DNA of 40,000 bases from contig NZ_CP064030.1 of assembly GCF_016865235.1 (NCBI RefSeq), positions 3,902,603-3,942,602 on the forward strand, read 5' to 3'. The DNA is from Dyella caseinilytica. Its GTDB lineage: Bacteria > Pseudomonadota > Gammaproteobacteria > Xanthomonadales > Rhodanobacteraceae. Positions 7,599 to 21,657 of this stretch are shown piece by piece. Positions within the stretch are counted from its first letter, which is position 1. Each line of letters opens with the position of its first letter. The notes below the pieces were generated by a model. It made no database searches. It had not been told where the DNA came from and worked only from the letters and a program-made list of their open reading frames with translations. The position numbers and the translations under genes are program-made.

Positions 7599-8582
7599 TC
7601 AGAACACGTACATGTAGCGCATCACAGCCTGCGTGCCTGCGGCACGGTTCTCGGCAAGCCCTTCAAAATAGAGATTGCCTATCAGTCGATGCTGAGCTTT
7701 GCGCCATTGCACGCCGGGTCCAAGTCCGAATATCCGCTCGTGCGTTCTGGCTTGTGCCTGACCATTGATGCGGTCGGCGCTGATCTGCTGCAGCTGATAC
7801 ATACCCAGCCCGAGCCGCCAATGTGGCGTCAGCGCATACGAAGCGCTGAGGTTGTAATGGAAAGCCTGGCCGGGCCGAATGCTGTGAACCGGCGCACCGA
7901 ACTGGGCGGTGACGCGCATTTCCGGATCGCGACTCGGGCCGTTCCACAGATACATCAGGCGGCCACTGATTTCCCAGCGCTGATCCGGACGTAGGGTAAA
8001 GGCGTAGTACGGATTGAAGCTGGTGTAATGCGTGCCGAGATTGAGCGTGGCATCCGGCCGGTAGTTCCCCCATGGCAAGGCAAGGATCAGCGAAAGACGC
8101 GATTCGAATCGATACCCGAACAGACGCTTGTCCAACCATTGCACATACAGTCCTACATTCGGGTTGGCGATGCCCTCGGAATGTCCATGCGCCGGACCAC
8201 TCTGGAGGTTGATATCCATCAGCGGCACGATCACTTCAGCGCCCGCGTAACCTCTCGCCACCGGAATATTCGCGGTATAGGCGTAATGGAGTCGGTGAAT
8301 CCAGACGGATTTGTCATAGCGGGTGGTGATGCGGTCGCCGTCGGCGTTGTAATTGCGGGTCGCATCGAAGCGACTGGTACTCCACTGCAACAGGGTGCCT
8401 AGGCCGCCGCCGCCATCCTCGAAACTCGTCGCGCCGAGATTCACGCCGGGGAGCGCAAGGTTAGTCGCCTTCGTTTCAACGGCCACGCCCAGGGCCAGAA
8501 CGAGACCGATTGCCACTCGCCTCAAAACACGACCCGATCGTGAAACCTGGCTTGCCGCCCTGACCATTTGCCAGCCATCCAT
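7599..8582 (-). CDS. outer-membrane beta-barrel channel, phenol-degradation meta-pathway (MetA/SphA-like) family
   Basis: 327 aa. The signal peptide is ...RRVAIGLVLALGVAVETKA. Beta-strand-like amphipathic segments alternate along the protein, and it ends in a C-terminal aromatic residue (YMYVF). The start ATG overlaps the MFS stop (TGATG at 8580-8584). The family call is from overall resemblance only. Confidence 0.6.
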   Translation of the reverse strand: MDGWQMVRAASQVSRSGRVLRRVAIGLVLALGVAVETKATNLALPGVNLGATSFEDGGGGLGTLLQWSTSRFDATRNYNADGDRITTRYDKSVWIHRLHYAYTANIPVARGYAGAEVIVPLMDINLQSGPAHGHSEGIANPNVGLYVQWLDKRLFGYRFESRLSLILALPWGNYRPDATLNLGTHYTSFNPYYAFTLRPDQRWEISGRLMYLWNGPSRDPEMRVTAQFGAPVHSIRPGQAFHYNLSASYALTPHWRLGLGMYQLQQISADRINGQAQARTHERIFGLGPGVQWRKAQHRLIGNLYFEGLAENRAAGTQAVMRYMYVF

Positions 8583-9877
8583 CAGGCCACGCCCTCGGCG
8601 AGCGCTGTGCTGCCCAACTCATGCGCGCGGCGGCGCTCGCGCGCCCAAAGCAGCGCACCACACACCAGCACAACGACCTGCGTCCCGACCAACAATCCGA
8701 AGCCCGCCTGGAAGCCGGCTTGATGTCCCGCCGGGAACAATCCGATCACCCAACCCATCAGCAAGGGCATGAAAGCCGAGGTCAACGCGCCAGTACCATT
8801 GGTGAAGCCAATGGCTGCCGCCACATGCTCAGGCTTAGAGTAATACTGCACAGTGCTGGGAATCGGCGGCGTCTGCAGCCCCCAGAAAAAACCGGCGGCA
8901 ATAAGGCTGTATACCGCGACGTATTTATTGCTCGCGTAGATCGCGAGCAATACCGATGCTGCGATACCGATGCTGCCCACCACGAAGATCAGCGGCACAT
9001 GCCGGCGTTTGATGCGATCGATGATGACTCCTCCCACGAGCACACCCAACACGATGGCGTACTGTGGCAGGGAGCCGAGCCACCCCATTTCGCTGACCGA
9101 GAAACCACGCGCTATTTTCAGATAGCTCGGCAACCAGCTCGCACTACCCCACAAATAAGCCAAGCATGCTGACGTGAGCAACGCGAGTGTGACCAGGTAA
9201 CGCGTGTGCAGCGCGTTGCGGAAATTCTGACTTACCACAGCCATCGCACGCGCCATCGACACCGGTGCGCGGCGATAATCCGGGCGCTCCGGCATGCGCA
9301 CGTAAAGCAGCACGAGAGGTAAGCCAATCGCGATATTGATCAAGCCCAGTACGTAAAACGAAGCGTGCCAATTAAGCATCGCAACCAACGTACTGACCAA
9401 CGGGAAGCCAATGGCGAGACCCAAACCCGTGCCCATGTTGACCAGCGAGTTGGGTTTGCCATTTTCGTCACCGCGAAAATGCGCCTTGATATACGACGAT
9501 GCCAATCCGAACAGCGGACCTTCCGAAATGCCCAGCAATACGCGCGAAAGCAACAACATGCCCATGCCAGAAAAGGAGGGCGATGTCGCCGTCACCACAC
9601 CCCAGAATACCAGCCCATAGAACAGGCTTCTGCGTACACCGAGCACCGTGGCGCAAAATGGCGTCAGGATGAAATTGGACAAGGCATAGCCAACCATGAA
9701 AGCGGTGCCAAGCATGCCCTGGCTCGCATGGTCTTCCAGCGAAAGTCCGAAGTGATCCAGGAAACCGGCGTCGGTCACCAAAACAGCGATGTTGATGCGA
9801 TCGATATAAGAGATAGCCATGATCACAAACAGCGTGATCACACCAACCCAGCGTGCATCCTTGCCCTGCATTTGCAT
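8582..9877 (-). CDS. MFS transporter (anion:cation symporter/ACS-like family)
   Basis: Multi-TM protein with the N-terminal motif WVGVITLFVIMAISYIDRINIAV typical of ACS-family MFS permeases. I prefer the ATG at 9877 (MQMQGKDARW) because GGAGG lies 7 nt upstream. Alternatives are the ATG at 9907 and the GTG at 9922. Confidence 0.8.
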   Translation of the reverse strand: MQMQGKDARWVGVITLFVIMAISYIDRINIAVLVTDAGFLDHFGLSLEDHASQGMLGTAFMVGYALSNFILTPFCATVLGVRRSLFYGLVFWGVVTATSPSFSGMGMLLLSRVLLGISEGPLFGLASSYIKAHFRGDENGKPNSLVNMGTGLGLAIGFPLVSTLVAMLNWHASFYVLGLINIAIGLPLVLLYVRMPERPDYRRAPVSMARAMAVVSQNFRNALHTRYLVTLALLTSACLAYLWGSASWLPSYLKIARGFSVSEMGWLGSLPQYAIVLGVLVGGVIIDRIKRRHVPLIFVVGSIGIAASVLLAIYASNKYVAVYSLIAAGFFWGLQTPPIPSTVQYYSKPEHVAAAIGFTNGTGALTSAFMPLLMGWVIGLFPAGHQAGFQAGFGLLVGTQVVVLVCGALLWARERRRAHELGSTALAEGVA

Positions 9878-9954
9878 TCCCTGCCCTCCACCACGTTTCA
9901 TCCGCATGAACTCGCCAGCCACCCAGGTTCATAGCTGGGCGACCACTCAGGTCA

Positions 9955-11613
9955 TCAGTACAATTTCTTCTGCGGCGGTCCGGCAAAATTCAGCGGGCCG
10001 ATAGCTGCCATATCCACCTCGACCAGCGCAGGACCAGCGTGCTGCACGGCTTCGTCCAATACGGAGCGGAAGTTCTCGATCGCATCAAGCTTACATGCGC
10101 GCATACCCATGGACTCACCCAGCTTGACGAAATCCGGGGCGTGCAATTGGTTGTAGTACTGCCGATCGCCAAAATATTTTTTCTGGATGCCGCGCATCAC
10201 GCCATAGCCGGCGTCATTCATTACCAGGAAGACGATGTCGAGGTTTTCCTGCACTGCTGTGGCAAATTCACCCAGATTAAGCATCAAGCCACCATCACCG
10301 ATCACGGCAAGCACTTTGCGCCCAGGGTTTGCGATAGCGCAGCCGATGGCATGCGGCAAACCAAGACCGATCGCACCCGCAAGCGAGTGGACATTGCGCA
10401 GCGGGCGTTCAAAGCCAAGCAGGCGACTGCCCCAGGTGCTGCCCGACATGGTGATGTCGCGTACGAAGATGCCATCCTCGGGAAGCGCCGCGCGCACGGC
10501 GTCGGAAAGGGCTGCGTACGGGCCAAGCTGTTCGCGCAGTGCTTTCTCCGCATCGGCAACCACCGCTGCCAGCGCCTGGTCACGCGCGGTGATACCGGGA
10601 CGCTGCCCCTTCTCCAGCCTGTCGGCCAGGCAAGTGAGCACCTGTGAGCAATCGCCGAGGACAAAGGTATCCATCGGATAATTGCGGTTGCACGCCGCGG
10701 GATCGATATCGATCTGCACGCACGATGCAGGTAATGCCAGCGAATAGGTTGAGGTTTCATTGCTGCGCAAGCGCGAACCGGCAACGATCAACAGATCGCT
10801 TTGCGACAGCAAGCCGGCAACACCGGCATCGTTATGGAAAGCGCGCAGACTGCGCGGATGACTGTCGGGCAGGATGCCACGGCCATGCGTACTGGACACC
10901 ACGGCGACACCAAGATCCGCCAGACGCCGCACCGCGTCGGCCGCCGCCAGAGCGCCGCCGCCAACCCACAACACGGGACGCTTCGCGCTGCGCAACCGCC
11001 GTGCGAGCGCCTCCACCGCAGCCTCGTCCATGGCCTGTCGTGCTGCTGGCAATGGCTCAAGCAGGCAAGGCAACTCGATCTGCCTGGCCTGCACGTCAAT
11101 CGGAATTTCGATGCTCACCGGGCCGCATGGCTGCCTTGCCGCTTCCTGGATGGCACGCTGCACAATCGCCACCGCCTGTTCCGGATACAAAATGCGATAG
11201 GCCGCCTTGGAGCAACCACGCAACAGGCTCATCTGGTCGCGTGTTTCATGGATGAAGCTTGCATCACGATCCAGGTATTCGCGTTCTACCTGGCCGGTAA
11301 TGTGCAACAGCGGCGCGCCTGCATTCATGGCCTCCATCAGTGCGCCGGCTGCGTTGCCTGCCCCAGCACCCGTGCTGGTGAGCGCGACACCCAGACCGCT
11401 GAAGCGACCATGCGTATCGGCCATGGCCGCCGCGCCGGCCTCGCCGCGTGCGGGCACGAAGCGGATCTTGCCACGGCGACCGATGGCGTCCGCTATCGGC
11501 AAGTTGTGGATCGAGATCACGCCATATACGGCGTTCACGCCGTAAGCCTCGAGCACGCGCACGATCGCCTCGCCGACGGTGACCTTCTCTTTCATCGCTG
11601 TTTCGATACTCAT
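9955..11613 (-). CDS. thiamine-diphosphate-dependent enzyme (acetolactate synthase large-subunit-like / 2-keto-acid decarboxylase-carboligase family)
   Basis: About 552 aa with three-domain ALS-like organisation. The N-terminus reads VGEAIVRVLEAYGVNAVYGVISIHNLP. The C-terminal TPP motif is VIGDGGLMLNLGEFATAVQENLDIVFLVMNDAGYG. The ATG at 11613 forms an ATGA overlap with the ALDH stop. The ATG at 11622 is an alternative. Confidence 0.85.
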   Translation of the reverse strand: MSIETAMKEKVTVGEAIVRVLEAYGVNAVYGVISIHNLPIADAIGRRGKIRFVPARGEAGAAAMADTHGRFSGLGVALTSTGAGAGNAAGALMEAMNAGAPLLHITGQVEREYLDRDASFIHETRDQMSLLRGCSKAAYRILYPEQAVAIVQRAIQEAARQPCGPVSIEIPIDVQARQIELPCLLEPLPAARQAMDEAAVEALARRLRSAKRPVLWVGGGALAAADAVRRLADLGVAVVSSTHGRGILPDSHPRSLRAFHNDAGVAGLLSQSDLLIVAGSRLRSNETSTYSLALPASCVQIDIDPAACNRNYPMDTFVLGDCSQVLTCLADRLEKGQRPGITARDQALAAVVADAEKALREQLGPYAALSDAVRAALPEDGIFVRDITMSGSTWGSRLLGFERPLRNVHSLAGAIGLGLPHAIGCAIANPGRKVLAVIGDGGLMLNLGEFATAVQENLDIVFLVMNDAGYGVMRGIQKKYFGDRQYYNQLHAPDFVKLGESMGMRACKLDAIENFRSVLDEAVQHAGPALVEVDMAAIGPLNFAGPPQKKLY

Positions 11614-13079
11614 CGGCTCCATCTCATCGGCGCGGTTTCCATTCCCAGGTAAATGCTCTTCTGCTGCATATAGGCCAGCACACCTTGCCTACCCTTCTCG
11701 CGGCCCAACCCGCTCTCCTTGAAACCGCCGAACGGCGTGGAGATGGAGAATTTTTTGTAGGTATTGATCCAGATCGTGCCGGCCTCCAGGCGCGCGGCCA
11801 GATTCAGGGCGCGGCGGTAATCCCCGGTCCAGATGCCCGCCGCCAGACCATAGACACTGTCGTTGGCCTCGGCGATCAGCGATGCTTCATCGTCGAACGG
11901 CATCGCCACCAGCACGGGGCCAAAGATCTCCTCACGGCACGCACGCGCCTGCGGCGACAGACCTTCAATAACCGTCGGCAGGTAATAATTGCCAAGCTCC
12001 AGGGCCGGATCGGCGGGAACAGCGCCACCGCAGCGAATGCGTCCGCCTTCTTCCAGTGCGGATGCCACATAATTTGCGACGCTTTCGCGATGCGCGCGAC
12101 TGATCAGCGGCCCCATGTGCACACCGTCCTGCTCCGGATGGCCGATGCGCAGTCCTCGCACCACGTCCTGCAGACGATTCATGAAGGCGTCGTATAGCGA
12201 CCGGTGCACCAGCAGGCGCGAACCGGCGACGCAAGCCTGCCCGGCCGAGCTGAAAATGCCATACGCCACGCCGCGCACGGCGTGCTCAAGGTCAGCATCA
12301 TCCAGCACGATCGTTGGCGATTTGCCGCCCAGTTCCAGCGACGTGGGAATGAGCTTGTCGGCGGCGATATGTGCGAGATGCCGGCCGGTGTTGGTGCCAC
12401 CGGTGAACGATATCTTGCGCACCAGCGGATGCCGCACCATCGCTTCGCCAACCACGGATCCTCGACCCGGCAATACGCTGAGCAATCCAGCTGGCAATCC
12501 GGCTTCCTCATACAAGCGAGCAAGCGCAAGCGCCGCCATCGGCGTGGCGTCGGCAGGCTTGACTACGACTGCATTGCCTGCGGCCAGCGCTGGCGCAATC
12601 TTCTGCATCTCGCTGGCGATAGGTGAGTTCCAGGGCGTAATGGCGGCAATTACACCGATCGGCTCATAGGTGCTAAAGGCCGTGAAGTCACGACTGCGCG
12701 GCGTCGGCAATTCGCCCTCCAGGGTTTCGCATACGGCGGCGAAATAGCGCGCGGTGCCGGCAGCGCTATCGACCAGCGCACGTGTCTCAGCCAACGGCTT
12801 ACCGTTGTCGCGCGTTTGCAATCGGGCCAGATCTTCACGCCGCGCTTCAATCAACGCCGCGACGCGATAAAGCACGGTGGCCCGCTGATGCGGTAGGCTT
12901 TCGCGCCACGCGGGATTACGCCAGGCGCGTTCGCCAGCTTGCACGGCATCGTCGACATCCGAGAGATCGGCCACGTGAAGTTGCACGTTGATACTTTGGT
13001 CTGCCGGAAACAGCGATGCAGTCTGCGCCCCGCGTCCCTGCCGCCACTGGCCGCCTACGAATATGCGGTCTTCGATCAT
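11610..13079 (-). CDS. NAD(P)-dependent aldehyde dehydrogenase
   Basis: The ATG at 13079 (MIEDRIFVGGQW) has an AAGGA SD upstream. ALDH hallmarks are present: ITPWNSPI, the catalytic region FSSAGQACVAGSRLLV and ELGGKSP. Confidence 0.9.
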   Translation of the reverse strand: MIEDRIFVGGQWRQGRGAQTASLFPADQSINVQLHVADLSDVDDAVQAGERAWRNPAWRESLPHQRATVLYRVAALIEARREDLARLQTRDNGKPLAETRALVDSAAGTARYFAAVCETLEGELPTPRSRDFTAFSTYEPIGVIAAITPWNSPIASEMQKIAPALAAGNAVVVKPADATPMAALALARLYEEAGLPAGLLSVLPGRGSVVGEAMVRHPLVRKISFTGGTNTGRHLAHIAADKLIPTSLELGGKSPTIVLDDADLEHAVRGVAYGIFSSAGQACVAGSRLLVHRSLYDAFMNRLQDVVRGLRIGHPEQDGVHMGPLISRAHRESVANYVASALEEGGRIRCGGAVPADPALELGNYYLPTVIEGLSPQARACREEIFGPVLVAMPFDDEASLIAEANDSVYGLAAGIWTGDYRRALNLAARLEAGTIWINTYKKFSISTPFGGFKESGLGREKGRQGVLAYMQQKSIYLGMETAPMRWSR

Positions 13080-13090
13080 GTCATTCCTTT

Positions 13091-13882: not shown

Positions 13883-13912
13883 GGTGTTGAATCCCTTCGT
13901 TATGGCGATGTA

Positions 13913-15549: not shown

Positions 15550-15554
15550 CGGAA

Positions 15555-16055: not shown

Positions 16056-16162
16056 CGTTGCTCTCCGGTTATTACCTCAGACACGAAGTCCGTCCGGCGG
16101 GACGAATTCCGGCTCTTTCCATGCAACAGCACTGTCAAGTGCTGCGCCGCTTCATTTATTGC

Positions 16163-17374
16163 TCAGCGCAAGCTCATCAAATCGAAGGAAGGATCCGCAA
16201 GATTCATGGGATCGAGTTGACGGTCTGTAGCCATCCAGCGACGTCCAAGCTTGATGGCGCGCGGATCGCCAAACGACACCATGTGCTGGAGGCGCTGCTG
16301 CGGATCGAGATAGAAATAGACGTCCATACCAACGCCACCAAGACGGTGAATACATGAGCTTCCGCTGGTGTAGACACCCAATATCTGGATATTCACGCCA
16401 TACTGGTCTGACCAGAGCCATGGCTCGTCGTCGTAATTCACGTCCAGGCCAAGCATGCCGCGCGCCGCGGCTGCACCCTGGTTCTGGGCATTGGCCCACG
16501 ATTGCACGCAAATGCCATGTACAGGGTGCGTCGCCACATCACCAGCTGCGAAGATATGCGGATCGCTGCTGCGCCCCGTACCATCCACAACGATGCCCCC
16601 GCCACCGATGGTCAGACCAGCATCTTGCGCAAGCTCCACGTTGAGTTGCGCTCCAGCACCGACCAGCACCGTGTCATACGTTTCCTCACCGGCAGATGAG
16701 GCGATCCTTGCGCCGCCTTGCGGATTCGAGGACAGCGCAAGATCGCCACATGCAAGACGCAATCCTGCGCCGTGCGCGCGATGCAGAGTGGCAAGTTGAT
16801 CGGCCACTTCTGGACCTACGCTACGCCCACACAACCGGGGCGCCCGCTCATAGACCGTAGCGGAAATGCCCATCGAAAGGGCCGACGCCGTCACTTCGAG
16901 GCCAATCCAGCCGCCACCGATCACCGCCAACTGGCGGCAACTGGCAAGACGCTCGCGCAGACTCAACGCATCATCGATATTGCGCAACAGGACAACACCG
17001 CCGATTTGCGCCCACGCTGGATCCGGCAAGCGTGGACGGCTTCCGGTCGCCATCAGTAAGCGGTCATACGACAGCAAATCACCGTTATCCAGATGGACCT
17101 GGCGTGTTGTGCGATCGATTTTTGTGGCGCGCTGCGGGCGATGCCAATCGATATTCAAAATACTCGTGACATCGGCGCTGAACAGACGCAAGCTTTCCGG
17201 TTCCTGCTTGCCGGCCAACACATCTTTGGAGAGCGCTGGACGCTCATAAAAATCATGCGGTTCATCGGCGACCACGCTCAGGTGGTTGGCATAACCGAGA
17301 TCGCGCAGGGTCTTGGCCGCCCAGCCGGCCGCCTGTCCCCCGCCAATAATCACGATGCGCTCGGGTGCATTCAT
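16163..17374 (-). CDS. FAD/NAD(P)-dependent ferredoxin reductase (glutathione-reductase type, Rieske-oxygenase electron-transfer component)
   Basis: 403 aa. It has an N-terminal IVIIGGGQAAGWAA dinucleotide fold, a second GxGxxG (LAVIGGGWIGLE) and FAAGDV. This matches BphA4/CamA-like reductases. Confidence 0.85.
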   Translation of the reverse strand: MNAPERIVIIGGGQAAGWAAKTLRDLGYANHLSVVADEPHDFYERPALSKDVLAGKQEPESLRLFSADVTSILNIDWHRPQRATKIDRTTRQVHLDNGDLLSYDRLLMATGSRPRLPDPAWAQIGGVVLLRNIDDALSLRERLASCRQLAVIGGGWIGLEVTASALSMGISATVYERAPRLCGRSVGPEVADQLATLHRAHGAGLRLACGDLALSSNPQGGARIASSAGEETYDTVLVGAGAQLNVELAQDAGLTIGGGGIVVDGTGRSSDPHIFAAGDVATHPVHGICVQSWANAQNQGAAAARGMLGLDVNYDDEPWLWSDQYGVNIQILGVYTSGSSCIHRLGGVGMDVYFYLDPQQRLQHMVSFGDPRAIKLGRRWMATDRQLDPMNLADPSFDLMSLR

Positions 17375-18312
17375 GCGCGCACCTGCCGCCGCGTGGCCGC
17401 ATCGATACCACCCTCAACGGCCCATTCGGTAAACGATTCGACCGAGTGCTGCAATTCGCGCGGAGCCCACGCTTCGGTGAGATGGTCCTCGTTGGTATAG
17501 AACTCGAACGCGCCACCCGCTGGGCTCTTGACGTACCAGAAATACGCCGAGGAAATCGGGTGACGCCCCGGACCAAGGAAGGTTGCCCAACCGGCGCGGC
17601 TCATGGCGAGACCACCACCGAAGACCTCGTGGATATCGCGTACGGTAAATGCCACATGGTTGAGTCCACGCGGCTTACCCGGCACGTGTAGCAGGAACAG
17701 GTTGTGATGACCTGCTCGCGCAGCTGTGCGCAGGAACACGCCTTTGCCCACGTAGCGGTCTGAAACATGGAATCCGAGCTTCTCGCGATAGAACTGTTCG
17801 ACCTTGTCCAGCTCTTCAACAAAAAACACCGCATGTCCGATGCCGATCGGCGTCGCTTTGTCGTAAACCGGACTGGGCTGATCGACGCGGCGAGCATCTC
17901 CCCATTGGTTGATTGGCACGACATCGAGCGTTACGTCGCGCAATGCGCTCACACGAAAACGCAAGGTCATACCGTTAGGGTCGCGGCAGGTGAGCGAGGT
18001 TTCATCGCGTACAAATCCGGGAACATCTGCCAGCTCTTCAGCCAGACGATTCAGTGCATCCGCCGAAGCAAGGCCCCAGGTGACCCGGCGCATGGTGGAA
18101 CCATTTTCAAAAGCGGGTGGAAGGCGTGCGTCATCGATCGGATAGAGCGATACGCGGCTGCCATTGAGCGCTTCGAAGCAAATCGCACCTTCGCTGCCCG
18201 GTGCACACGGAACCGGGGTCAGACCAAAGTCGCATATAAATTGTTCGCATTTCGCGAGGTTCTCGACGCCGAATTCGTATTCTTCGATTCCCAGGATGTC
18301 CATATCGTGCAC
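17371..18312 (-). CDS. two-domain VOC-superfamily extradiol ring-cleavage dioxygenase-like protein
   Basis: 313 aa with two glyoxalase/VOC modules. The C-terminal module carries HVAFTV...GPGRHPISSAYFWYVKSPAGGAFEFY, which resembles the type I extradiol dioxygenase signature region. Its stop overlaps the reductase start as ATGA (17371-17374). Confidence 0.75.
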   Translation of the reverse strand: MHDMDILGIEEYEFGVENLAKCEQFICDFGLTPVPCAPGSEGAICFEALNGSRVSLYPIDDARLPPAFENGSTMRRVTWGLASADALNRLAEELADVPGFVRDETSLTCRDPNGMTLRFRVSALRDVTLDVVPINQWGDARRVDQPSPVYDKATPIGIGHAVFFVEELDKVEQFYREKLGFHVSDRYVGKGVFLRTAARAGHHNLFLLHVPGKPRGLNHVAFTVRDIHEVFGGGLAMSRAGWATFLGPGRHPISSAYFWYVKSPAGGAFEFYTNEDHLTEAWAPRELQHSVESFTEWAVEGGIDAATRRQVRA

Positions 18313-18349
18313 GTCCTTTAAAAACTTGTTGATTCATGGCGTACGCGCT

Positions 18350-19147
18350 TCAGCGCGTAACTTGCAGGTAGCTCTCGATTTCGTCGGCCGCCTGCGCCAC
18401 CTCTTGCCGTAGCGATGCTTTCAACTTGTCCGGCAAGTTATGCCGGGGAGCCATTACGTTGACGGAGGCAACGACATCACCGCTGCGGTTACGCAGGGGA
18501 TAAGCCACCGCCGAGATGCCCGGCTGGTAAAAAGATTCGCTGATCGCGTAGCCCTGCTCGCGGTCGCCATCCAGCAAGTCAAACAATTGTTGCGGTGTTT
18601 TCGGCCCAGCCTCGGAGGTCTCAGCGAACACTGCCTCCGTATAGAGCCGCTCCAGCTCTGAACGCGGCAAATCCATGAGCAATACCCTGCCGATTGCCGT
18701 GCAATGCGCTGGCAATCGTGAACCGATGCTGACACCCGCACCGATTTCGCCGGAAGCGGCAACCCTGGCCACATACACCACGTCGCGTCCATCCCGCACG
18801 CACAAGTGCGAGGAGCAGTCCGTGTTGTCGCGCAGCCGATGAATCACGGGCTGGCCGATCTGCACGATGTCCATCGACGACAAATAGTCGAAGCCCAGCC
18901 GGAGCACGCTGATGCCAAGCGCATAGCCACCCGAGGTGCCACGCGCCAGGAAACCCATCTCCTCCAGCGTCTGCACGGCGCGATAAACCGACGCCTTTGG
19001 CATCGTTGTGCGCTGGCAGATATCGCTGAAGCTCAGCTCGCCACGATGTTCGCCGAGCATGCGCAGTAAGCCGAGCCCCTTTTCCAGCGCGGGCACGGCG
19101 TAGCGTCTTTCGTGTTTCACGCGGATTACATCGTCGACGGACATCAA
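18350..19147 (-). CDS. IclR-family transcriptional regulator
   Basis: 265 aa. The N-terminal wHTH region reads VPALEKGLGLLRMLGEHRGELSFSDICQRTTMPKASVYRAVQTLEEMGFL. The C-terminal part is an IclR effector domain. The gene is embedded in the operon on the same strand. Confidence 0.9.
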   Translation of the reverse strand: MMSVDDVIRVKHERRYAVPALEKGLGLLRMLGEHRGELSFSDICQRTTMPKASVYRAVQTLEEMGFLARGTSGGYALGISVLRLGFDYLSSMDIVQIGQPVIHRLRDNTDCSSHLCVRDGRDVVYVARVAASGEIGAGVSIGSRLPAHCTAIGRVLLMDLPRSELERLYTEAVFAETSEAGPKTPQQLFDLLDGDREQGYAISESFYQPGISAVAYPLRNRSGDVVASVNVMAPRHNLPDKLKASLRQEVAQAADEIESYLQVTR

Positions 19148-19156
19148 GCGGCTCCT

Positions 19157-19918
19157 TTAATTGAAGACGAAGCCGCCGTTGACCGGCAGAGTTTGACCTG
19201 TCACGAAATCGGACAGCGACGACAACAGATAGAGCACGGTGCCATCGATGTCCGTGGGAACCTGCGCACGTGCGATGGCACGCCCGTCTTCGTAGAGACG
19301 GTGGCGTTCTTCGGGCACATATTCGGTCGCCTCGCACTGCGTGAGTCCTGGCGCAATGGCGTTGACGCAAATACCGTCCTTACCGACCTCGCGAGCCATC
19401 GCGCGCGTCATGGCGAGCACTGCGCCCTTGCTAGCGACGTAGGCCATCAAACGCGGCGCGCCCCATAGGGCTGTGTCGGAGGCCACCATCACGATCTTGC
19501 CGTGGTTGGCTTGGCGTAAGTACGGCAATGCTGCTCGGCTGACCAACCAGGTGCCACGAACGTTGACTTGCATGACACGGTCCCAGGTTTCCAGGCTCAG
19601 CATCTCCATGGTCGGCCCACCGATGCCGGTCGCAATCGCCGCATTGTTGACCAGGCCATCCAGGCCGCCCATCTTGCGTGCCGCTTCATCGACAGCCTGA
19701 TCGATCGCGCCGGGATCGTTAAGATCGATCGTCACTGCATCGGCGTGCAATCCTTCGTCACGCAGATGTACCAGTGTCTCCTGTGTATCGAGTATGTCGG
19801 CGACAACAACCTTCGCCCCGGCTCTCGCTGCAGCCAACGCGAAGCTTTGCCCCAATCCACGCGCAGCGCCGGTAATTAGCACCTTACGCCCGGCCAGTAC
19901 GCGGGTTCGCGAGCTCAT
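19157..19918 (-). CDS. short-chain dehydrogenase/reductase (candidate cis-dihydrodiol dehydrogenase)
   Basis: 253 aa with TGAARGLG, NNAA and the catalytic SxnYxxxK region (ASDTALWG...YVASKGAV). The start forms an ATGA overlap with the oxygenase stop (19915-19918). Confidence 0.85.
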   Translation of the reverse strand: MSSRTRVLAGRKVLITGAARGLGQSFALAAARAGAKVVVADILDTQETLVHLRDEGLHADAVTIDLNDPGAIDQAVDEAARKMGGLDGLVNNAAIATGIGGPTMEMLSLETWDRVMQVNVRGTWLVSRAALPYLRQANHGKIVMVASDTALWGAPRLMAYVASKGAVLAMTRAMAREVGKDGICVNAIAPGLTQCEATEYVPEERHRLYEDGRAIARAQVPTDIDGTVLYLLSSLSDFVTGQTLPVNGGFVFN

Positions 19919-20958
19919 GCCGGCGTGCCCTCCTTTTCAGCCAGGGCCTTTGCCCGCTGTTCGAGCTGAGCCTGAGCCATCTTCTGCATGATTCGGCGCA
20001 CGCGCGTAAGACCAGCATCGTGTGCATAGAGGAATTCATGATCGCGCGCATCGGCTGCCATGCCTTCGAGGATCAAGCGATCCTGCTCAAGCACCTCCCA
20101 GTGCAGCTTTTCCAAGCGATTGCGGTACATGAAGCGCCACGTATCACGCTGCCATCCCTGCACTTTGCGGATGCGCCAGAAGAACACGCGGCAATGATGC
20201 TCATCGACTGGTACGACCAAGCCTACGATCCAGAACGGACCACCCGGCCCGAACTGCTGGCGGTAGGGAATGGACAAGCGCAACCAGAACGTACCGCTGT
20301 GGCCAAACTCCACCCAATCGAAGTTGACGCCGCGCTGCCCGGTCTTTTCGAACAGGAAGCCATGATTGGTTGGCACAATCTGCATTTCCGCGCTGCGATC
20401 GCCATCGGCCATCGAGTGCGACGCCGCATGCAGGTACGCGCCGTGCATGGGGTCCATGACGTTGTCGATGGCGTATTCGTAACCACATTTCCAGGCTGCT
20501 GTGCAAAGGAAGTGGCTGTATTGCTCGGTATCCTCGAGTTCGGCCGGCAGGGTCAGTTCCGTCGCCTCCGATTGCTCGCTGGCCGCGAAATAGAGAAACA
20601 CCGCTCCGTGACGCTCCTGTACTGGATACGAGCGTATACATTTGGCACCCACCAATGGGCAGGTGTTGACGGCCGGTACATCCTTGACCACGCCATCGGT
20701 GCCGACTTCCACACCGTGATACCAGCAGGCCACGCGATCACCGAGATTCCATCCCATCGAAAGACGCGCGCCGCGATGCGGGCAGCGATCCTCCAGTGCA
20801 TGCACCTGACCTTGAGCGTCACGCCAAAGCACGATGTTTTCACCCAGCCGGGTGATGCCAAGCGGCGCGCTTGAAACTTCCCAGCTCGCCACGACCGGGT
20901 ACCAAAGATCGCGCAACCCCTGGCGCAGATAAGCACCGACTTCCGCCTTGCTAGCCAT
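19915..20958 (-). CDS. Rieske non-haem-iron oxygenase, alpha-only type (KshA/CarAa/phthalate-family-like)
   Basis: The ATG at 20958 (MASKAEVGAYLRQGLRDLWYPV) opens a 348-aa protein. The Rieske motif is CPHRGARLS...CWYHG. The mononuclear Fe motif is DNVMDPMHGAYLH. No beta-subunit gene is present. The upstream 129 codons of ORF 19915..21345 overlap the neighbouring gene in another frame. Confidence 0.85.
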   Translation of the reverse strand: MASKAEVGAYLRQGLRDLWYPVVASWEVSSAPLGITRLGENIVLWRDAQGQVHALEDRCPHRGARLSMGWNLGDRVACWYHGVEVGTDGVVKDVPAVNTCPLVGAKCIRSYPVQERHGAVFLYFAASEQSEATELTLPAELEDTEQYSHFLCTAAWKCGYEYAIDNVMDPMHGAYLHAASHSMADGDRSAEMQIVPTNHGFLFEKTGQRGVNFDWVEFGHSGTFWLRLSIPYRQQFGPGGPFWIVGLVVPVDEHHCRVFFWRIRKVQGWQRDTWRFMYRNRLEKLHWEVLEQDRLILEGMAADARDHEFLYAHDAGLTRVRRIMQKMAQAQLEQRAKALAEKEGTPA

Positions 20959-20987
20959 GCCTGTATTCCTCCAGATTCCCTTCGCGA

Positions 20988-21293
20988 TCAGTAGCCAAGG
21001 CTTGCCATGGCCGAGCAGAACGAGCTTTCCGTCCATGCGTGGCCACTGTGATCGTGCATGCCGAGTGCATTGAGTCGTGCGACTACGTCGCTCAGTTCCA
21101 ACGCACCTTGTCCGAATACTTGCTCCAGCGCCTCGACAAGCTGCTGCTCGTATTCGCTGGGTTCGCGTGCACGGGTCTGCCAGACCATGTTTTCCCATTG
21201 ACCGACGGCTTCGATCGAACCGGCACCTGGCGTCGACACTGGCGTCTGGCGCTGCCAAGTTTTGAGATACGTATTGAATGCTTGCTGCGTCAT
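20988..21293 (-). CDS. small conserved hypothetical protein (101 aa) between the ferredoxin and the oxygenase
   Basis: It is ATGA-coupled to the ferredoxin stop (21290-21293). Third-position GC is high, like its neighbours. The sequence is MTQQAFNTYLKTWQRQ...HDHSGHAWTESSFCSAMASLGY. I vaguely recall similar small proteins being labelled recombinase-like HTH in database annotation, but I cannot verify that. Confidence 0.6.
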   Translation of the reverse strand: MTQQAFNTYLKTWQRQTPVSTPGAGSIEAVGQWENMVWQTRAREPSEYEQQLVEALEQVFGQGALELSDVVARLNALGMHDHSGHAWTESSFCSAMASLGY

Positions 21294-21628
21294 GCGGCTG
21301 CCTCTTCCTTGGCTTGCAATGCGGCGGTATCGATCTGCACATCATCGCCGTGCAAACGCAATGGATAGGTCAGCAGATCCCGTCCACCTGGTTCGCGTAG
21401 ACAGCGACCGCTGCGGATGTCGAATACGGCCTCGTGCAACGGGCACTCGACCTTGCCATCTTCCACGAAGCCTTGGCTCAACAGGGCGTAGGCATGCGGG
21501 CAAACGTTTTCGATAGCGAAATAATCACCATCGACCAGGAAAACACCGATTTCTTTACCAGCGACTTTCACGCCAAATGGGTATTCCTCACGCACTTGCG
21601 ATCTGCTGCAAATCGTCTCCCAACTCAT
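21290..21628 (-). CDS. Rieske-type [2Fe-2S] ferredoxin (oxygenase electron-transfer component)
   Basis: 112 aa with CPHAYALLSQG...CPLHEAVF (C-x-H...C-x2-H). An AAGGGG SD lies upstream of the ATG at 21628. It is the first gene of the cluster. Confidence 0.85.
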   Translation of the reverse strand: MSWETICSRSQVREEYPFGVKVAGKEIGVFLVDGDYFAIENVCPHAYALLSQGFVEDGKVECPLHEAVFDIRSGRCLREPGGRDLLTYPLRLHGDDVQIDTAALQAKEEAAA

Positions 21629-21657
21629 GTACGCCCCTTCAATGTTCGATGCACATA

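What the first reader, a model, noticed from the sequence alone, without database searches (positions are those of the whole stretch)
7599..21628. 15-gene, translationally coupled aromatic-type catabolic cluster that matches no characterised pathway I know
Fifteen same-strand genes sit between two core genes, aceE and maeB. Five junctions are ATGA overlaps: 21290-93, 19915-18, 17371-74, 14704-07 and 11610-13. One junction is a TGATG overlap (8580-84), which argues for one or a few polycistronic units. The upper part is a complete oxygenase system. It has an alpha-only Rieske oxygenase (CPHRG...CWYHG, DNVMDPMHGAYLH), a Rieske-type ferredoxin and a GR-type FAD reductase. An SDR, a two-domain extradiol dioxygenase-like VOC protein and an alpha/beta hydrolase (GHSLGA) accompany it. 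The lower part is unusual for bph/car/tod/hsa-type routes. It has a cupin, a second SDR, an aspartate-dehydrogenase-family enzyme, an ALDH and an ALS-like TPP enzyme. The cluster carries its own IclR regulator inside the operon, an ACS-type MFS permease and a MetA/SphA-like outer-membrane channel, so uptake across both membranes is encoded. There is no beta subunit, no aldolase/hydratase pair and no CoA ligase. From memory only, and to be verified, AspDH homologues in Pseudomonas and Cupriavidus sit in similar AspDH/ALDH/TPP/SDR/IclR neighbourhoods whose physiological substrate has never been established.
Basis: partly seen in the sequence, partly recalled or inferred. Interest (0 to 1): 0.75.

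Follow-up and report, generated by a model that had tools for sequence, protein, structure and literature searches.

The report
Conserved orphan aromatic-acid degradation operon
This is a real 15-gene operon for breaking down a nitrogen-containing aromatic acid; the same enzyme set occurs in many bacteria including Pseudomonas aeruginosa-group, Klebsiella and Acinetobacter, no substrate has been assigned to it, and it fits the 60-year-old, gene-less pathway for the tryptophan metabolite kynurenic acid.

Summary
Fifteen minus-strand genes fill 7599-21628 between aceE and maeB. Every domain call holds.

The window matches Dyella caseinilytica (oxygenase 100% identical). The cluster is not unique. 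The same gene order occurs in Serratia, Klebsiella, Stenotrophomonas and Marinobacterium. Rearranged versions occur in Pseudomonas, Cupriavidus, Halomonas, Acinetobacter and Alphaproteobacteria.

- Six genes (cupin, alpha/beta hydrolase, SDR2, AspDH, ALDH, TPP enzyme) co-occur in 62 of 63 complete loci.
- The extradiol dioxygenase joins them in 58 of 63.
- The Rieske oxygenase and SDR1 are also present in 48 of 63.

All database names are generic, and ten full-text searches found no substrate assignment.

My best mechanistic reading, inferred and not shown, is the classical kynurenate "quinoline" pathway:
- The Rieske system, SDR1 and the extradiol enzyme open the benzene ring.
- SDR2, the TPP decarboxylase and ALDH trim the 2-oxo-acid side chain.
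- The cupin and hydrolase open the pyridone ring to 2-oxoglutarate plus iminoaspartate.
- AspDH reduces iminoaspartate to aspartate.

Confidence in that substrate is about 0.4. Confidence that this is one conserved, uncharacterised catabolic system is about 0.9.

The parts
21629..22230 (-). About 600-nt AT-richer leader or promoter region upstream of the first gene. The maeB terminator lies at 22190-22167.
   Evidence: GC is 0.47 here against 0.60 for the cluster. Terminator. Sequence read.
21290..21628 (-). Rieske-type [2Fe-2S] ferredoxin (112 aa), the electron carrier for the oxygenase.
   Evidence: Pfam Rieske 71.7 bits. Nearest NCBIfam models are AndAb and HcaC, both below cut-off. ATGA overlap with the next gene.
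20988..21293 (-). HTH_62 small acidic protein (101 aa). It is always found immediately upstream of this oxygenase clade and its role is unknown.
   Evidence: PF20552 87 bits. Adjacent to the oxygenase in every locus inspected gene by gene that carries it. pI 4.1-5.1 in seven homologues.
19915..20958 (-). Alpha-only Rieske oxygenase (347 aa, Rieske + VanA_C). Proposed kynurenate 7,8-dioxygenase.
   Evidence: Pfam. Nearest solved relatives are CarAa, phthalate-family enzymes, DdmC, NdmA and OxoO. 100% identical to a Dyella caseinilytica protein that carries only a generic name.
19157..19918 (-). SDR1 (253 aa). Proposed dihydrodiol dehydrogenase.
   Evidence: adh_short_C2 194 bits. ATGA-coupled to the oxygenase. 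Present in 49 of 63 complete loci.
18350..19144 (-). IclR-family regulator (264 aa), PcaR/PcaU/PobR-like.
   Evidence: IclR_C + HTH_IclR. TIGR02431 178 bits, below cut-off. Present in 61 of 63 loci.
17371..18312 (-). Two-domain type I extradiol dioxygenase (313 aa). Proposed 7,8-dihydroxykynurenate 8,8a-dioxygenase.
   Evidence: Nearest solved relative is homoprotocatechuate 2,3-dioxygenase. In that alignment LNHVAF, GPGRH, the AYFWY tyrosine and FEFY line up with the enzyme's LHHVAF, GPGRH, AFYLY and IEIY. That these are the metal-ligand and catalytic positions, and that H157 is the first ligand, is from memory. Present in 58 of 63 loci.
16163..17374 (-). FAD ferredoxin-NAD(+) reductase (403 aa).
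   Evidence: Pyr_redox_2 + Reductase_C. AndAa- and HcaD-like, below cut-off.
16127..16144 (-). Perfect 18-bp palindrome CAGCACTTGACAGTGCTG in the only long internal gap (107 nt). Candidate operator or internal promoter for the core genes.
   Evidence: One match in the window, 0.04 expected. Sequence read.
15555..16055 (-). Metal-binding monocupin (166 aa), the most conserved gene of the system. Proposed O2-dependent ring-opening enzyme.
   Evidence: Cupin_2. 61-89% identical across classes. H81, H83 and E87 are invariant, and R126 is invariant; that R126 occupies the usual motif-2 histidine position is my reading of the cupin consensus motif. Weakly nearest to 3-hydroxyanthranilate dioxygenase and quercetinases.
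14704..15549 (-). Alpha/beta hydrolase (281 aa, GHSLGA). Proposed hydrolase of the ring-opened product.
   Evidence: Nearest solved relatives are the C-C hydrolases BphD, HsaD and MhpC, aligned over most of their length. PcaD-like by NCBIfam, below cut-off.
13913..14707 (-). SDR2 (264 aa, NF005468 family). Proposed reductase of the oxopropenyl side chain.
   Evidence: NF005468 437 bits against a cut-off of 266. Present in 62 of 63 loci.
13091..13882 (-). L-aspartate dehydrogenase (263 aa).
   Evidence: NF009828 378 bits against a cut-off of 177, plus Asp_DH_C. AspDHs of P. aeruginosa, R. eutropha JMP134, Klebsiella and Delftia have been assayed as aspartate dehydrogenases, the last two shown specific for oxaloacetate (PMC5554190). 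Present in 63 of 63 loci.
11610..13079 (-). NAD(P) aldehyde dehydrogenase (489 aa).
   Evidence: Aldedh 553 bits. Best sub-threshold models are betaine-aldehyde dehydrogenase, phenylacetaldehyde dehydrogenase StyD and HpaE.
9955..11613 (-). Thiamine-diphosphate enzyme (552 aa, NF005470 family). Proposed 2-oxo-acid decarboxylase.
   Evidence: NF005470 800 bits against a cut-off of 495. A lower-ranking named model is the 2-ketoarginine decarboxylase family, NF005712. Solved relatives are acetolactate synthases and benzoylformate decarboxylase.
8582..9922 (-). MFS permease (446 aa).
   Evidence: MFS_1 159 bits. TIGR00893 142 bits, below cut-off.
7599..8582 (-). MetA-type outer-membrane channel (327 aa).
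   Evidence: Phenol_MetA_deg 146 bits. TGATG junction with the MFS gene.

Best explanation
**What is shown.** This is one IclR-controlled catabolic unit of Dyella caseinilytica. It may have a second internal promoter before the cupin.
- It encodes uptake across both membranes, a three-component Rieske oxygenase and nine further enzymes.
- The same enzyme set is conserved as a cluster across Gamma-, Beta- and Alphaproteobacteria.

**What is inferred.** It encodes the classical 'quinoline pathway' for kynurenate (4-hydroxyquinoline-2-carboxylate) or a close quinoline-2-carboxylate analogue. Steps 1-6 follow the classical intermediates. Steps 7-9 are my chemical proposal. None of the steps has been tested here.
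1. The oxygenase, with ferredoxin and reductase, adds O2 at C7/C8 to give the 7,8-dihydrodiol.
2. SDR1 rearomatises it to 7,8-dihydroxykynurenate.
3. The extradiol dioxygenase cleaves the benzene ring. The product is 5-(3-carboxy-3-oxopropenyl)-4,6-dihydroxypicolinate.
4. SDR2 reduces the side-chain double bond.
5. The TPP enzyme decarboxylates the 2-oxo acid to the aldehyde.
6. ALDH oxidises the aldehyde to 5-(2-carboxyethyl)-4,6-dihydroxypicolinate.
7. The cupin uses O2 to cleave the C4-C5 bond of the enolised beta-dicarbonyl pyridone. The product is an N-(2-oxoglutaryl)-aminobutenedioate.
8. The alpha/beta hydrolase splits this into 2-oxoglutarate and aminomaleate, which is a tautomer of iminoaspartate.
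9. AspDH reduces iminoaspartate to L-aspartate. Alternatively it hydrolyses to oxaloacetate and ammonia.
For: **Anatomy and coupling.**

**Conservation.**
- Six core genes co-occur in 62 of 63 loci. The extradiol enzyme joins them in 58 of 63. Oxygenase and SDR1 are also present in 48 of 63.
- The gene order is identical in Serratia and Klebsiella, Stenotrophomonas and Marinobacterium.

**Fit to the classical pathway.**
- All nine enzymes map one-to-one onto the proposed steps, with none left over and none missing.
A TPP decarboxylase, an ALDH and an extra SDR replace the hydratase/aldolase pair. There are two ring-cleaving metalloenzymes. An AspDH is present.
- The intermediates exist as named compounds in metabolite tables. 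These include 7,8-dihydro-7,8-dihydroxykynurenate, 7,8-dihydroxykynurenate and the 2-oxo-acid 5-(3'-carboxy-3'-oxopropyl)-4,6-dihydroxypicolinate.
- A 2024 review cites only the 1961 Pseudomonas tracer study for bacterial kynurenate breakdown. No paper in the searchable library assigns genes.
- Pseudomonas species are described as using either the anthranilate route or the kynurenic-acid route. Many P. fluorescens-group loci carry the cluster.

**Enzyme-level support.**
- In the alignment to homoprotocatechuate dioxygenase, the extradiol enzyme's LNHVAF, GPGRH, the AYFWY tyrosine and FEFY line up with LHHVAF, GPGRH, AFYLY and IEIY. I recall these as that enzyme's metal-ligand and catalytic positions.
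- The oxygenase's nearest solved relatives include enzymes that attack N-heterocycles, CarAa and OxoO. From memory, they do so next to the ring fusion.
- AspDHs of P. aeruginosa, Cupriavidus, Klebsiella and Delftia are real aspartate dehydrogenases in vitro, and the Klebsiella and Delftia enzymes are specific for oxaloacetate. I infer, without having compared sequences, that the first three are this cluster's orthologues.
- An aspartate ammonia-lyase follows the TPP gene in Marinobacterium (NF008909, 727 bits).
- A RidA imine deaminase follows the oxygenase in 25 loci.
- In Pseudomonas, Halomonas and Acinetobacter versions, a phenol-hydroxylating flavoprotein sits with the extradiol enzyme. 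This fits entry of 8-hydroxykynurenate (xanthurenate).

**From memory only.** Old extract work reported glutamate, alanine and acetate, or 2-oxoglutarate, oxaloacetate and ammonia, as end products. An aldehyde intermediate, 5-(2-formylethyl)-4,6-dihydroxypicolinate, is listed in KEGG.
Against: - There is no experimental link of any gene here to kynurenate.
- Four Alcaligenes/Paenalcaligenes loci carry only the six core genes, with their own porin and ABC transporter, and no oxygenase or extradiol enzyme within 10 kb.
- Some alphaproteobacterial loci have oxygenase plus core but no extradiol enzyme, SDR1 or ALDH.
- These two layouts suggest that the core has a free-standing substrate. The kynurenate scheme does not supply an obvious one.
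- A P. aeruginosa kynU mutant accumulates kynurenate to 100 uM in rich medium, so it is not consumed under that condition.
- An SDR acting as a C=C reductase is unusual. No cis-dihydrodiol dehydrogenase model appears among the 25 NCBIfam families shown for SDR1.
- Three observations are unexplained:
  - In A. baumannii the cluster (ABUW_2941-2949) rises together with sulfur-starvation genes.
  - Halomonas versions always carry a sulfatase.
  - Pseudomonas and Alcaligenes versions use an SsuA/TauA-type binding protein.
- Sequence and fold comparisons of the cupin give no substrate-level information.
Confidence: 0.4

Rival explanations
1. The substrate is an aromatic amino acid, degraded by an hca/mhp-like route.
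- Phenylalanine (via oxygenase + SDR1) or meta/ortho-tyrosine (via the flavoprotein in other genomes) is converted to 2,3-dihydroxyphenylalanine.
- The extradiol enzyme cleaves it.
- The MCP hydrolase releases L-aspartate, where the mhp route releases succinate, plus 2-hydroxypentadienoate.
- AspDH deaminates the aspartate.
- The cupin, SDR2, TPP enzyme and ALDH dispose of the C5 2-oxo acid by decarboxylation instead of hydratase/aldolase.
For: - The hydrolase is most similar to BphD, MhpC and HsaD.
- The ferredoxin and reductase resemble HcaC and HcaD.
- Two entry enzymes converge as in E. coli hca/mhp: a dioxygenase + SDR pair and a flavoprotein hydroxylase.
- AspDH and aspartase point to aspartate as a product.
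- CoA ligase or enoyl-CoA hydratase genes flank some loci.
Against: - The oxygenase is alpha-only and VanA/CarAa-like, not HcaE/F-like.
- The lower route for the C5 acid is ad hoc, and the cupin has no clear role in it.
- The hydrolase belongs to the invariant core, while the extradiol enzyme that should feed it is absent from Alcaligenes and some alphaproteobacterial loci.
Confidence: 0.13
2. The substrate is another N-containing aromatic acid that enters at the cupin, and the oxygenase/extradiol module is only a feeder.
- Candidates are a hydroxylated picolinate or pyridone carboxylate, or an aminohydroxybenzoate such as 3- or 5-hydroxyanthranilate.
- The cupin opens the ring.
- The hydrolase releases an aminobutenedioate and a 2-oxo acid.
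- AspDH handles the first product. The TPP enzyme and ALDH handle the second.
For: - Core-only operons exist with their own porin, ABC transporter and IclR regulator.
- Oxygenase-plus-core operons exist.
- The cupin is weakly nearest to 3-hydroxyanthranilate dioxygenase.
- RidA and aspartase are linked to the cluster.
- The flavoprotein is nearest to para-hydroxylating or decarboxylating hydroxylases, which feed cupin dioxygenases in gentisate-type routes.
Against: - No specific compound explains all six core enzymes better than the kynurenate scheme.
- 92% of complete loci do carry the extradiol enzyme.
- Dipicolinate, the obvious abundant candidate, already has a different, GntR-regulated dip cluster in Alcaligenes.
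Confidence: 0.2
3. The pathway acts on an organosulfur compound, either an aromatic or aliphatic sulfonate or a sulfate ester.
- It would serve sulfur scavenging or sulfonate carbon use.
- AspDH would act on a sulfonated aspartate analogue such as cysteate.
- The TPP enzyme would be a sulfopyruvate-type decarboxylase.
- The ALDH and SDR would act on sulfoacetaldehyde-type intermediates.
For: - ABUW_2941-2949 are co-induced with ssu, tau, sfn and cys genes in A. baumannii.
- Pseudomonas and Alcaligenes loci have SsuA/TauA-family binding proteins. PA3512-14 is discussed alongside a taurine/MOPS-binding homologue.
- A sulfatase is conserved in 10 Halomonas/Saccharospirillum loci.
Against: - No desulfonating enzyme, sulfite exporter or sulfite dehydrogenase is in the cluster.
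- The window, Serratia and Klebsiella versions use an MFS permease and have no sulfur-related gene.
- By my count of the translation, the cupin has roughly 8 Met and 2 Cys in 166 residues, so it is not sulfur-poor.
- The assayed AspDHs have real aspartate/oxaloacetate activity, and the Klebsiella and Delftia enzymes are specific for oxaloacetate.
- The oxygenase, extradiol enzyme and MCP-type hydrolase have no role in this scheme.
Confidence: 0.07
4. The lower genes act first, as a mandelate/Ehrlich-type side-chain module.
- An amino or hydroxy acid is oxidised to an aryl 2-oxo acid by AspDH or SDR2.
- The TPP enzyme decarboxylates it, as benzoylformate decarboxylase does.
- ALDH oxidises the aldehyde to an aromatic acid.
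- That acid is then hydroxylated or demethylated and its ring is cleaved.
For: - The TPP enzyme is as close to benzoylformate decarboxylase as to most of the acetolactate synthases listed, and a lower-ranking named family is a 2-oxo-acid decarboxylase.
- The ALDH scores nearly as well on phenylacetaldehyde dehydrogenase StyD as on its best model.
- The oxygenase has a VanA_C domain, which is named for vanillate O-demethylase.
Against: - The AspDH family is specific for aspartate/oxaloacetate where tested.
- The scheme gives no role to the cupin plus hydrolase, which are the most conserved pair.
- It does not explain the RidA and aspartase links.
Confidence: 0.07
5. These are two or more unrelated operons that happen to lie side by side in this genome. 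One would be an oxygenase operon and the other an AspDH/TPP operon, with no shared pathway.
For: - There is a 107-nt gap with a palindrome before the cupin.
- The core occurs without the oxygenase module in Alcaligenes.
Against: - The two parts co-occur in 48 of 63 complete loci from different classes, in several different gene orders and interleaved with each other.
- A single IclR gene serves the whole cluster, and there is no internal terminator above chance.
- In A. baumannii the extradiol gene and the flavoprotein gene rise together with the core genes.
Confidence: 0.03

Closest known systems
Kynurenate 'quinoline pathway' of Pseudomonas (EC 1.14.99.2, 1.3.1.18, 1.13.11.10 and the later picolinate intermediates). 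It is known biochemically since 1959-63, and to my knowledge no genes have been assigned.
   Same: - The number and order of reaction types match: NAD(P)H/O2 dihydroxylation, diol dehydrogenation, Fe(II) extradiol cleavage, side-chain reduction, 2-oxo-acid decarboxylation and aldehyde oxidation.
- After these steps the nitrogen ring breaks down to a C5 and a C4 dicarboxylate plus ammonia.
- The organisms also fit (P. fluorescens group).
   Different: - Nothing links these genes to the pathway experimentally.
- The pyridone-opening steps (cupin, hydrolase, AspDH) are my proposal, not documented enzymology.
- Core-only and extradiol-less variants do not fit simply.
bph/hca-mhp/nah-type upper pathways: Rieske dioxygenase, cis-diol dehydrogenase, type I extradiol dioxygenase and MCP hydrolase.
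   Same: The same four enzyme families are present, together with a ferredoxin and a glutathione-reductase-type reductase.
   Different: - The oxygenase is alpha-only and VanA_C-type.
- No cis-diol dehydrogenase model is among the 25 NCBIfam families shown for SDR1.
- There is no hydratase/aldolase/acetaldehyde dehydrogenase.
- The hydrolase travels with the cupin, not with the extradiol enzyme.
- There are extra TPP, AspDH, ALDH and SDR genes.
Arginine transaminase pathway step AruI/KauB, and the mandelate pathway MdlC/MdlD: a 2-oxo-acid TPP decarboxylase followed by an aldehyde dehydrogenase.
   Same: A TPP enzyme of the acetolactate-synthase superfamily is paired with an ALDH. The likely logic is 2-oxo acid to aldehyde to acid.
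   Different: The TPP enzyme belongs to its own NCBIfam family (NF005470), which has no assigned reaction. It is embedded in an aromatic cluster.
NadX-type aspartate dehydrogenase in NAD biosynthesis (Thermotoga).
   Same: It is the same enzyme family and, where assayed, catalyses the same in vitro reaction.
   Different: Here the gene is fixed inside a catabolic operon, with no nadA or nadC beside it. This implies a catabolic role: capture or release of aspartate/iminoaspartate.
dip cluster for dipicolinate in Alcaligenes faecalis JQ135.
   Same: It degrades a pyridine-2-carboxylate, starts with a monooxygenase and is widespread.
   Different: It has a GntR-family DipR regulator, a different layout of 12 structural genes and a separate locus. 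Alcaligenes carries both systems' genera-level signatures.

Membership tests
Kynurenate quinoline pathway | An NAD(P)H- and O2-dependent enzyme forms kynurenate 7,8-dihydrodiol, followed by an NAD-dependent diol dehydrogenase. | not testable with these tools
   A three-component Rieske oxygenase and a translationally coupled SDR are present. These families are compatible, but substrate specificity cannot be read from sequence.
Kynurenate quinoline pathway | An Fe(II) extradiol dioxygenase acts on 7,8-dihydroxykynurenate. | tested here: inconclusive
   The VOC protein aligns with the LHHVAF, GPGRH, AFYLY and IEIY motifs of homoprotocatechuate dioxygenase, which I recall as its metal-ligand and catalytic positions. 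It therefore looks like a true extradiol dioxygenase. Its substrate is unknown.
Kynurenate quinoline pathway | The 3-carboxy-3-oxopropyl side chain (a 2-oxo acid) is converted to carboxyethyl via an aldehyde. | tested here: inconclusive
   A TPP enzyme and an ALDH are present in 63 of 63 loci. The intermediate name is confirmed. The activity is untested.
Kynurenate quinoline pathway | The host grows on, or is induced by, kynurenate. | not testable with these tools
   No data exist for Dyella caseinilytica. A P. aeruginosa kynU mutant accumulates kynurenate in rich medium.
bph/hca-type biphenyl or phenylpropionate upper pathway | A two-subunit (alpha + beta) Rieske dioxygenase. | tested here: not met
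   There is no beta-subunit ORF. All space in 7599-21628 is accounted for. The alpha subunit is of the Rieske + VanA_C type.
bph/hca-type biphenyl or phenylpropionate upper pathway | A 2-hydroxypentadienoate hydratase, an aldolase and an acylating dehydrogenase act downstream. | tested here: not met
   None is in the cluster or elsewhere in the window.
Vanillate-type O-demethylase (VanAB) | The oxygenase is paired with a single VanB-type flavin/[2Fe-2S] reductase. | tested here: not met
   There is a separate Rieske ferredoxin and a glutathione-reductase-type reductase with a Reductase_C domain.
Gentisate/homogentisate pathway | A bicupin 1,2-dioxygenase of about 350 aa, plus a maleylpyruvate isomerase and/or an FAH-family hydrolase. 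| tested here: not met
   The cupin is a 166-aa single-domain protein. The hydrolase has the alpha/beta fold. There is no FAH or GST gene in the cluster.
dip (dipicolinate) cluster | A GntR/FadR-family DipR repressor controlling the dipA-M genes. | tested here: not met
   The regulator here is IclR-family. The dip cluster is described in PMC11472048.
NadX (AspDH) NAD-biosynthesis context | The gene is linked to quinolinate synthase and phosphoribosyltransferase genes. | tested here: not met
   The neighbours are an SDR and an ALDH inside a catabolic operon. No such genes were seen in the flanks annotated.
L-aspartate dehydrogenase family (enzyme level) | The protein matches the curated AspDH model above its cut-off, and relatives have been assayed. 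| tested here: met
   NF009828 scores 378 bits against a cut-off of 177. The P. aeruginosa, R. eutropha JMP134, Klebsiella and Delftia enzymes are characterised. Whether the assayed proteins are the cluster copies is inferred, not checked.

The most novel reading that the evidence does not exclude
This conserved cluster would be the missing genetic basis of the kynurenate/xanthurenate pathway. It would contain three new things.
- A previously undescribed way of opening a 4-hydroxy-2-pyridone ring. A small Fe(II) cupin dioxygenase and an alpha/beta hydrolase would release iminoaspartate, which a dedicated aspartate dehydrogenase captures.
- The first physiological role for the 'catabolic' bacterial AspDHs.
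- A new acidic HTH_62 accessory protein for a Rieske oxygenase clade.

Because P. aeruginosa-group, Acinetobacter baumannii, Klebsiella and Serratia carry the cluster, it would also give pathogens a route to remove a host immunomodulator.
Probability: 0.35. Interest if true: 0.8.

Novelty: new variant of a known kind. Interest (0 to 1): 0.62.

Why it matters
- If the kynurenate assignment is right, three orphan EC numbers and several unnamed steps of a textbook pathway acquire genes.
- It would explain why aspartate dehydrogenase sits in catabolic operons of Pseudomonas, Cupriavidus and Klebsiella.
- It would define new reactions for the families NF005470 (TPP enzyme), NF005468 (SDR) and a highly conserved cupin.
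- It would make kynurenate and xanthurenate turnover by pathogens and soil bacteria testable with existing mutant libraries.
- Even if the substrate is different, this is a very widespread, well-delimited pathway with no assigned function. There are thousands of cupin homologues, and the cluster occurs in the Pseudomonas, Acinetobacter, Klebsiella and Cupriavidus genera. That makes it a good target for functional genomics.

Tried and rejected
**Literature.** Ten full-text searches found no functional study of the cluster. They covered AspDH with Rieske or cupin, PA3498-PA3514, ABUW_2941-49, kynurenate degradation and dipicolinate degradation. One search was badly posed and wasted.

**Dipicolinate.** I considered it because it is a picolinate-type acid and Alcaligenes carries the core. 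I set it aside because A. faecalis already has a separate GntR-regulated dip cluster.

**Sulfonate or sulfate scavenging.** This was prompted by the A. baumannii transcriptome, the TauA-like binding proteins and the Halomonas sulfatase. I kept it only as a low-probability rival. The cluster has no desulfonation or sulfite-handling genes.

**Cupin structure.** The AlphaFold2 model was mediocre (pLDDT 65.6). Foldseek against the PDB returned only generic cupins, which says nothing about substrate.

**Apparent gene fusions.** HTH_62-oxygenase (P0146) and oxygenase-SDR (P0141) look like a frameshift and a truncation artefact on inspection. I did not use them as evidence.

**Greedy ORF clustering of the loci.** It was contaminated by antisense ORFs in GC-rich DNA. 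I replaced it with targeted tblastn tables.

**Regulatory sites.**
- The consensus promoter scan gave fewer hits than chance.
- The inverted-repeat search of the leader gave only one weak pair.

**Exact-match look-ups.** Look-ups of the window's own cupin and oxygenase found no record.

**First genome scan.** It returned a server error and was repeated.

Full report
**1. The observation**

All fifteen genes lie on the minus strand and tile 7599-21628. In transcription order they are:

| Gene | Coordinates |
|---|---|
| Rieske ferredoxin | 21290-21628 |
| 101-aa HTH_62 protein | 20988-21293 |
| Alpha-only Rieske/VanA_C oxygenase | 19915-20958 |
| SDR1 | 19157-19918 |
| IclR regulator | 18350-19144 |
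| Two-domain VOC protein | 17371-18312 |
| FAD reductase | 16163-17374 |
| Cupin | 15555-16055 |
| Alpha/beta hydrolase | 14704-15549 |
| SDR2 | 13913-14707 |
| AspDH | 13091-13882 |
| ALDH | 11610-13079 |
| TPP enzyme | 9955-11613 |
| MFS permease | 8582-9922 |
| MetA-type outer-membrane protein | 7599-8582 |

- The five ATGA overlaps and the TGATG overlap are exactly where stated.
- The remaining gaps are 5-37 nt. The exception is a 107-nt gap before the cupin, which holds a perfect 18-bp palindrome.
- Terminator-like sites inside the cluster are no more frequent than in shuffled sequence. A strong terminator ends maeB just upstream.
- A 600-nt leader with GC 0.47 precedes the first gene.
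- AceE and MaeB are confirmed.
The fifteenth is the HTH_62 protein.

**2. Source and conservation**

The oxygenase is 100% identical to a protein of Dyella caseinilytica. The maeB flank is syntenic with Dyella sp. ASV21. The cluster's GC (0.598) matches its flanks (0.61), so nothing suggests recent acquisition.

A genome-collection scan with the hydrolase returned 80 loci. I compared them gene by gene. Among the 63 loci with both 10-kb flanks:
- Cupin, hydrolase, SDR2, AspDH, ALDH and TPP enzyme co-occur in 62.
- IclR is present in 61.
- The VOC protein is present in 58.
- The full nine-enzyme set, including the oxygenase and SDR1, is present in 48.

The window's gene order recurs in several genera:
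- a Stenotrophomonas genome, with 15 of 15 genes;
- Dyella sp. ASV21 and Entomohabitans;
- Marinobacterium;
- Serratia plymuthica and Klebsiella quasipneumoniae, where it lies next to speA-speB.

Other lineages shuffle the order and swap the transporter:
- Pseudomonas uses an ABC system with an SsuA/TauA-family binding protein. It adds a flavoprotein hydroxylase, a 105-aa protein that I judge by eye to resemble muconolactone isomerase (no Pfam or NCBIfam family matched), and RidA.
- Cupriavidus has a TctC-type receptor and a CoA ligase nearby.
- Halomonas and Saccharospirillum have a TRAP transporter, a sulfatase and the same flavoprotein.
- Alcaligenes and Paenalcaligenes keep only the six core genes, with a porin and an ABC transporter.
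- Several alphaproteobacterial contigs carry HTH_62-oxygenase-cupin-hydrolase-SDR2-TPP-AspDH, with or without SDR1, IclR and VOC.

A. baumannii AB5075 has VOC, flavoprotein, MFS, cupin, hydrolase, SDR, AspDH, ALDH and TPP as ABUW_2949-2941. From memory, the Pseudomonas layout corresponds to PA3498-PA3514 of PAO1. One paper does describe PA3512-14 as lying in 'an extensive locus' of hypothetical aldehyde-, adenylosuccinate- and acetolactate-related genes.

**3. What the individual proteins say**

- *VOC protein.* In the alignment to homoprotocatechuate 2,3-dioxygenase, its LNHVAF, GPGRH, the AYFWY tyrosine and FEFY line up with that enzyme's LHHVAF, GPGRH, AFYLY and IEIY. From memory, these are the metal-ligand and catalytic positions. 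I therefore read it as a true extradiol ring-cleavage enzyme.
- *Hydrolase.* It aligns over most of its length with the C-C bond hydrolases BphD, HsaD and MhpC.
- *Oxygenase.* Its nearest solved relatives are carbazole dioxygenase CarAa, phthalate-family enzymes, DdmC, NdmA and 2-oxoquinoline 8-monooxygenase.
- *Cupin.*
  - It is the most conserved protein of the system, at 61-89% identity across classes.
  - It has thousands of homologues, all named only 'cupin domain-containing protein'.
  - H81, H83 and E87 are invariant. R126 is also invariant. I place R126 at the usual motif-2 histidine position from the cupin consensus motif. That would give the 2-His-1-carboxylate set typical of O2-activating Fe(II) enzymes.
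  - Its only sequence relatives with known function are 3-hydroxyanthranilate dioxygenase and quercetinases, and the similarity is weak.
- *TPP enzyme and SDR2.* Each belongs to its own curated but unnamed NCBIfam family. A lower-ranking named TPP match is a 2-oxo-acid decarboxylase family.
- *AspDH.* It passes the curated aspartate dehydrogenase model. The enzymes of P. aeruginosa PAO1, R. eutropha JMP134, Klebsiella and Delftia have been assayed as aspartate dehydrogenases. The Klebsiella and Delftia enzymes showed very low activity on pyruvate and 2-oxoglutarate (PMC5554190).
- *Links to aspartate or an imine or enamine of it.*
  - A gene scoring above cut-off as aspartate ammonia-lyase follows the TPP gene in Marinobacterium.
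  - RidA follows the oxygenase in 25 loci.
- *HTH_62 proteins.* They are acidic (pI 4.1-5.1) and always directly precede the oxygenase. They look more like a protein partner than a DNA-binding regulator.

**4. Mechanism**

The nine enzymes map one-to-one onto the classical kynurenate pathway worked out in Pseudomonas extracts around 1960.
1. The Rieske system forms the 7,8-dihydrodiol.
2. SDR1 oxidises it to 7,8-dihydroxykynurenate.
3. The extradiol enzyme opens the benzene ring. The product is a 4,6-dihydroxypicolinate bearing a 3-carboxy-3-oxopropenyl side chain.
4. SDR2 saturates the side chain.
5. The TPP enzyme decarboxylates the 2-oxo acid.
6. ALDH oxidises the resulting aldehyde.

The named intermediates appear in current metabolite tables. 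A 2024 review still cites only the 1961 tracer paper for bacterial kynurenate breakdown.

For the remaining pyridone ring I propose three further steps:

7. The cupin cleaves the C4-C5 bond of the enolised beta-dicarbonyl with O2.
8. The hydrolase splits the resulting N-(2-oxoglutaryl) enamide into 2-oxoglutarate and aminomaleate, which is a tautomer of iminoaspartate.
9. AspDH reduces the latter to aspartate.

From memory, this agrees with the reported end products: glutamate, alanine and acetate, or 2-oxoglutarate, oxaloacetate and ammonia.

It also gives the flavoprotein of other genomes a role, namely entry of 8-hydroxykynurenate (xanthurenate).

What is shown is the gene content, the coupling, the conservation and the family-level chemistry. 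What is inferred is the substrate and every step assignment.

**5. Problems and rivals**

- The Alcaligenes core-only operons and the extradiol-less alphaproteobacterial operons suggest that the core has its own imported substrate. The kynurenate scheme does not predict this.
- A P. aeruginosa kynU mutant accumulates kynurenate in rich medium.
- Three observations are unexplained: the co-induction with sulfur-starvation genes in A. baumannii, the Halomonas sulfatase, and the TauA-like binding proteins.
- I therefore keep four rivals:
  - a different N-aromatic acid that enters at the cupin;
  - an hca/mhp-like route from phenylalanine or m-tyrosine that releases aspartate;
  - an organosulfur substrate;
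  - a mandelate-type reading of the lower genes.
- The idea of two unrelated neighbouring operons is effectively excluded by the co-occurrence data.

**6. Novelty**

No database name, curated model or paper available here assigns a substrate. The cluster is an aromatic catabolic system of a known general kind. Its core (cupin, hydrolase, AspDH, TPP enzyme, ALDH, SDR) is conserved and undescribed. I rate it a new variant of a known kind, of above-average interest. Its value would rise sharply if the kynurenate link is confirmed.

Noticed in passing
window 20988-21293 (-); also L037 about 18870-19100, L081 8694-8927, L086 4287-4586, L088 9674-9982, L089 9682-9990: A 75-102-aa HTH_62 (PF20552) protein sits immediately upstream of this Rieske oxygenase clade in every lineage I inspected. 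All seven homologues examined are acidic (pI 4.1-5.1). That is unusual for a DNA-binding helix-turn-helix protein and suggests an oxygenase accessory protein.
   Followed up: partly
window 16127-16144 (-): A perfect 18-bp palindrome, CAGCACTTGACAGTGCTG, contains a TTGACA hexamer. It lies in the only long intergenic gap of the cluster (reductase to cupin) and is unique in the window. It could be an operator or an internal promoter for the core genes.
   Followed up: partly
L081-L085 and L087 (metagenome and genome contigs, Defluviicoccus/Rhodospirillales-like): In six alphaproteobacterial loci (apparently about four distinct genomes) the cluster lies divergently next to hopanoid biosynthesis genes. 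These are squalene/phytoene synthase-like genes, squalene-hopene cyclase, an HpnG-like nucleosidase and an HpnH-like radical SAM enzyme. The adjacency holds although the cluster's own gene content varies between these loci.
   Followed up: no
A. baumannii AB5075 ABUW_2941-2949 (PMC12892962, main table and supplementary file 6): The homologous Acinetobacter cluster is up-regulated (log2 1.1-2.3) together with the ssu, tau, sfn and cys sulfur-starvation genes after vitamin B12 addition. The authors filed three of its genes (cupin, AspDH, ALDH) under sulfur acquisition in their Table 1. No explanation so far accounts for this.
   Followed up: partly
L003-L012 and L014 about 5400-7000 (Halomonas, Bisbaumannia, Saccharospirillum): A sulfatase (arylsulfatase- or choline-sulfatase-like, below cut-offs) and a TRAP transporter are conserved between the flavoprotein hydroxylase and the IclR-extradiol-core genes in all these marine loci. 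This hints at a sulfate-ester form of the substrate.
   Followed up: partly
L086 16433-17842 (Marinobacterium aestuariivivens): An aspartate ammonia-lyase gene (NF008909, 727 bits against a cut-off of 510) directly follows the TPP gene of the cluster.
   Followed up: yes
window 4715-7768 (+): A 1017-aa ORF runs antisense to aceE and into the outer-membrane protein gene. It is almost certainly a GC-rich antisense artefact. Similar long antisense ORFs cover much of the cluster.
   Followed up: no
window 24676-25950 (-), 31786-34833 (+), 36844-39972 (-): The flanks hold a MATCAP-family (PF08014) protein next to maeB, and two large TonB-dependent receptors with CarboxypepD_reg N-terminal domains. 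These are unrelated to the cluster as far as can be seen.
   Followed up: no
P0146 and P0141 (homologues): Database entries look like HTH_62-oxygenase and oxygenase-SDR fusions. On inspection the first has a scrambled HTH_62 C-terminus (a frameshift) and the second lacks the SDR N-terminus. They are probably assembly or annotation artefacts.
   Followed up: yes
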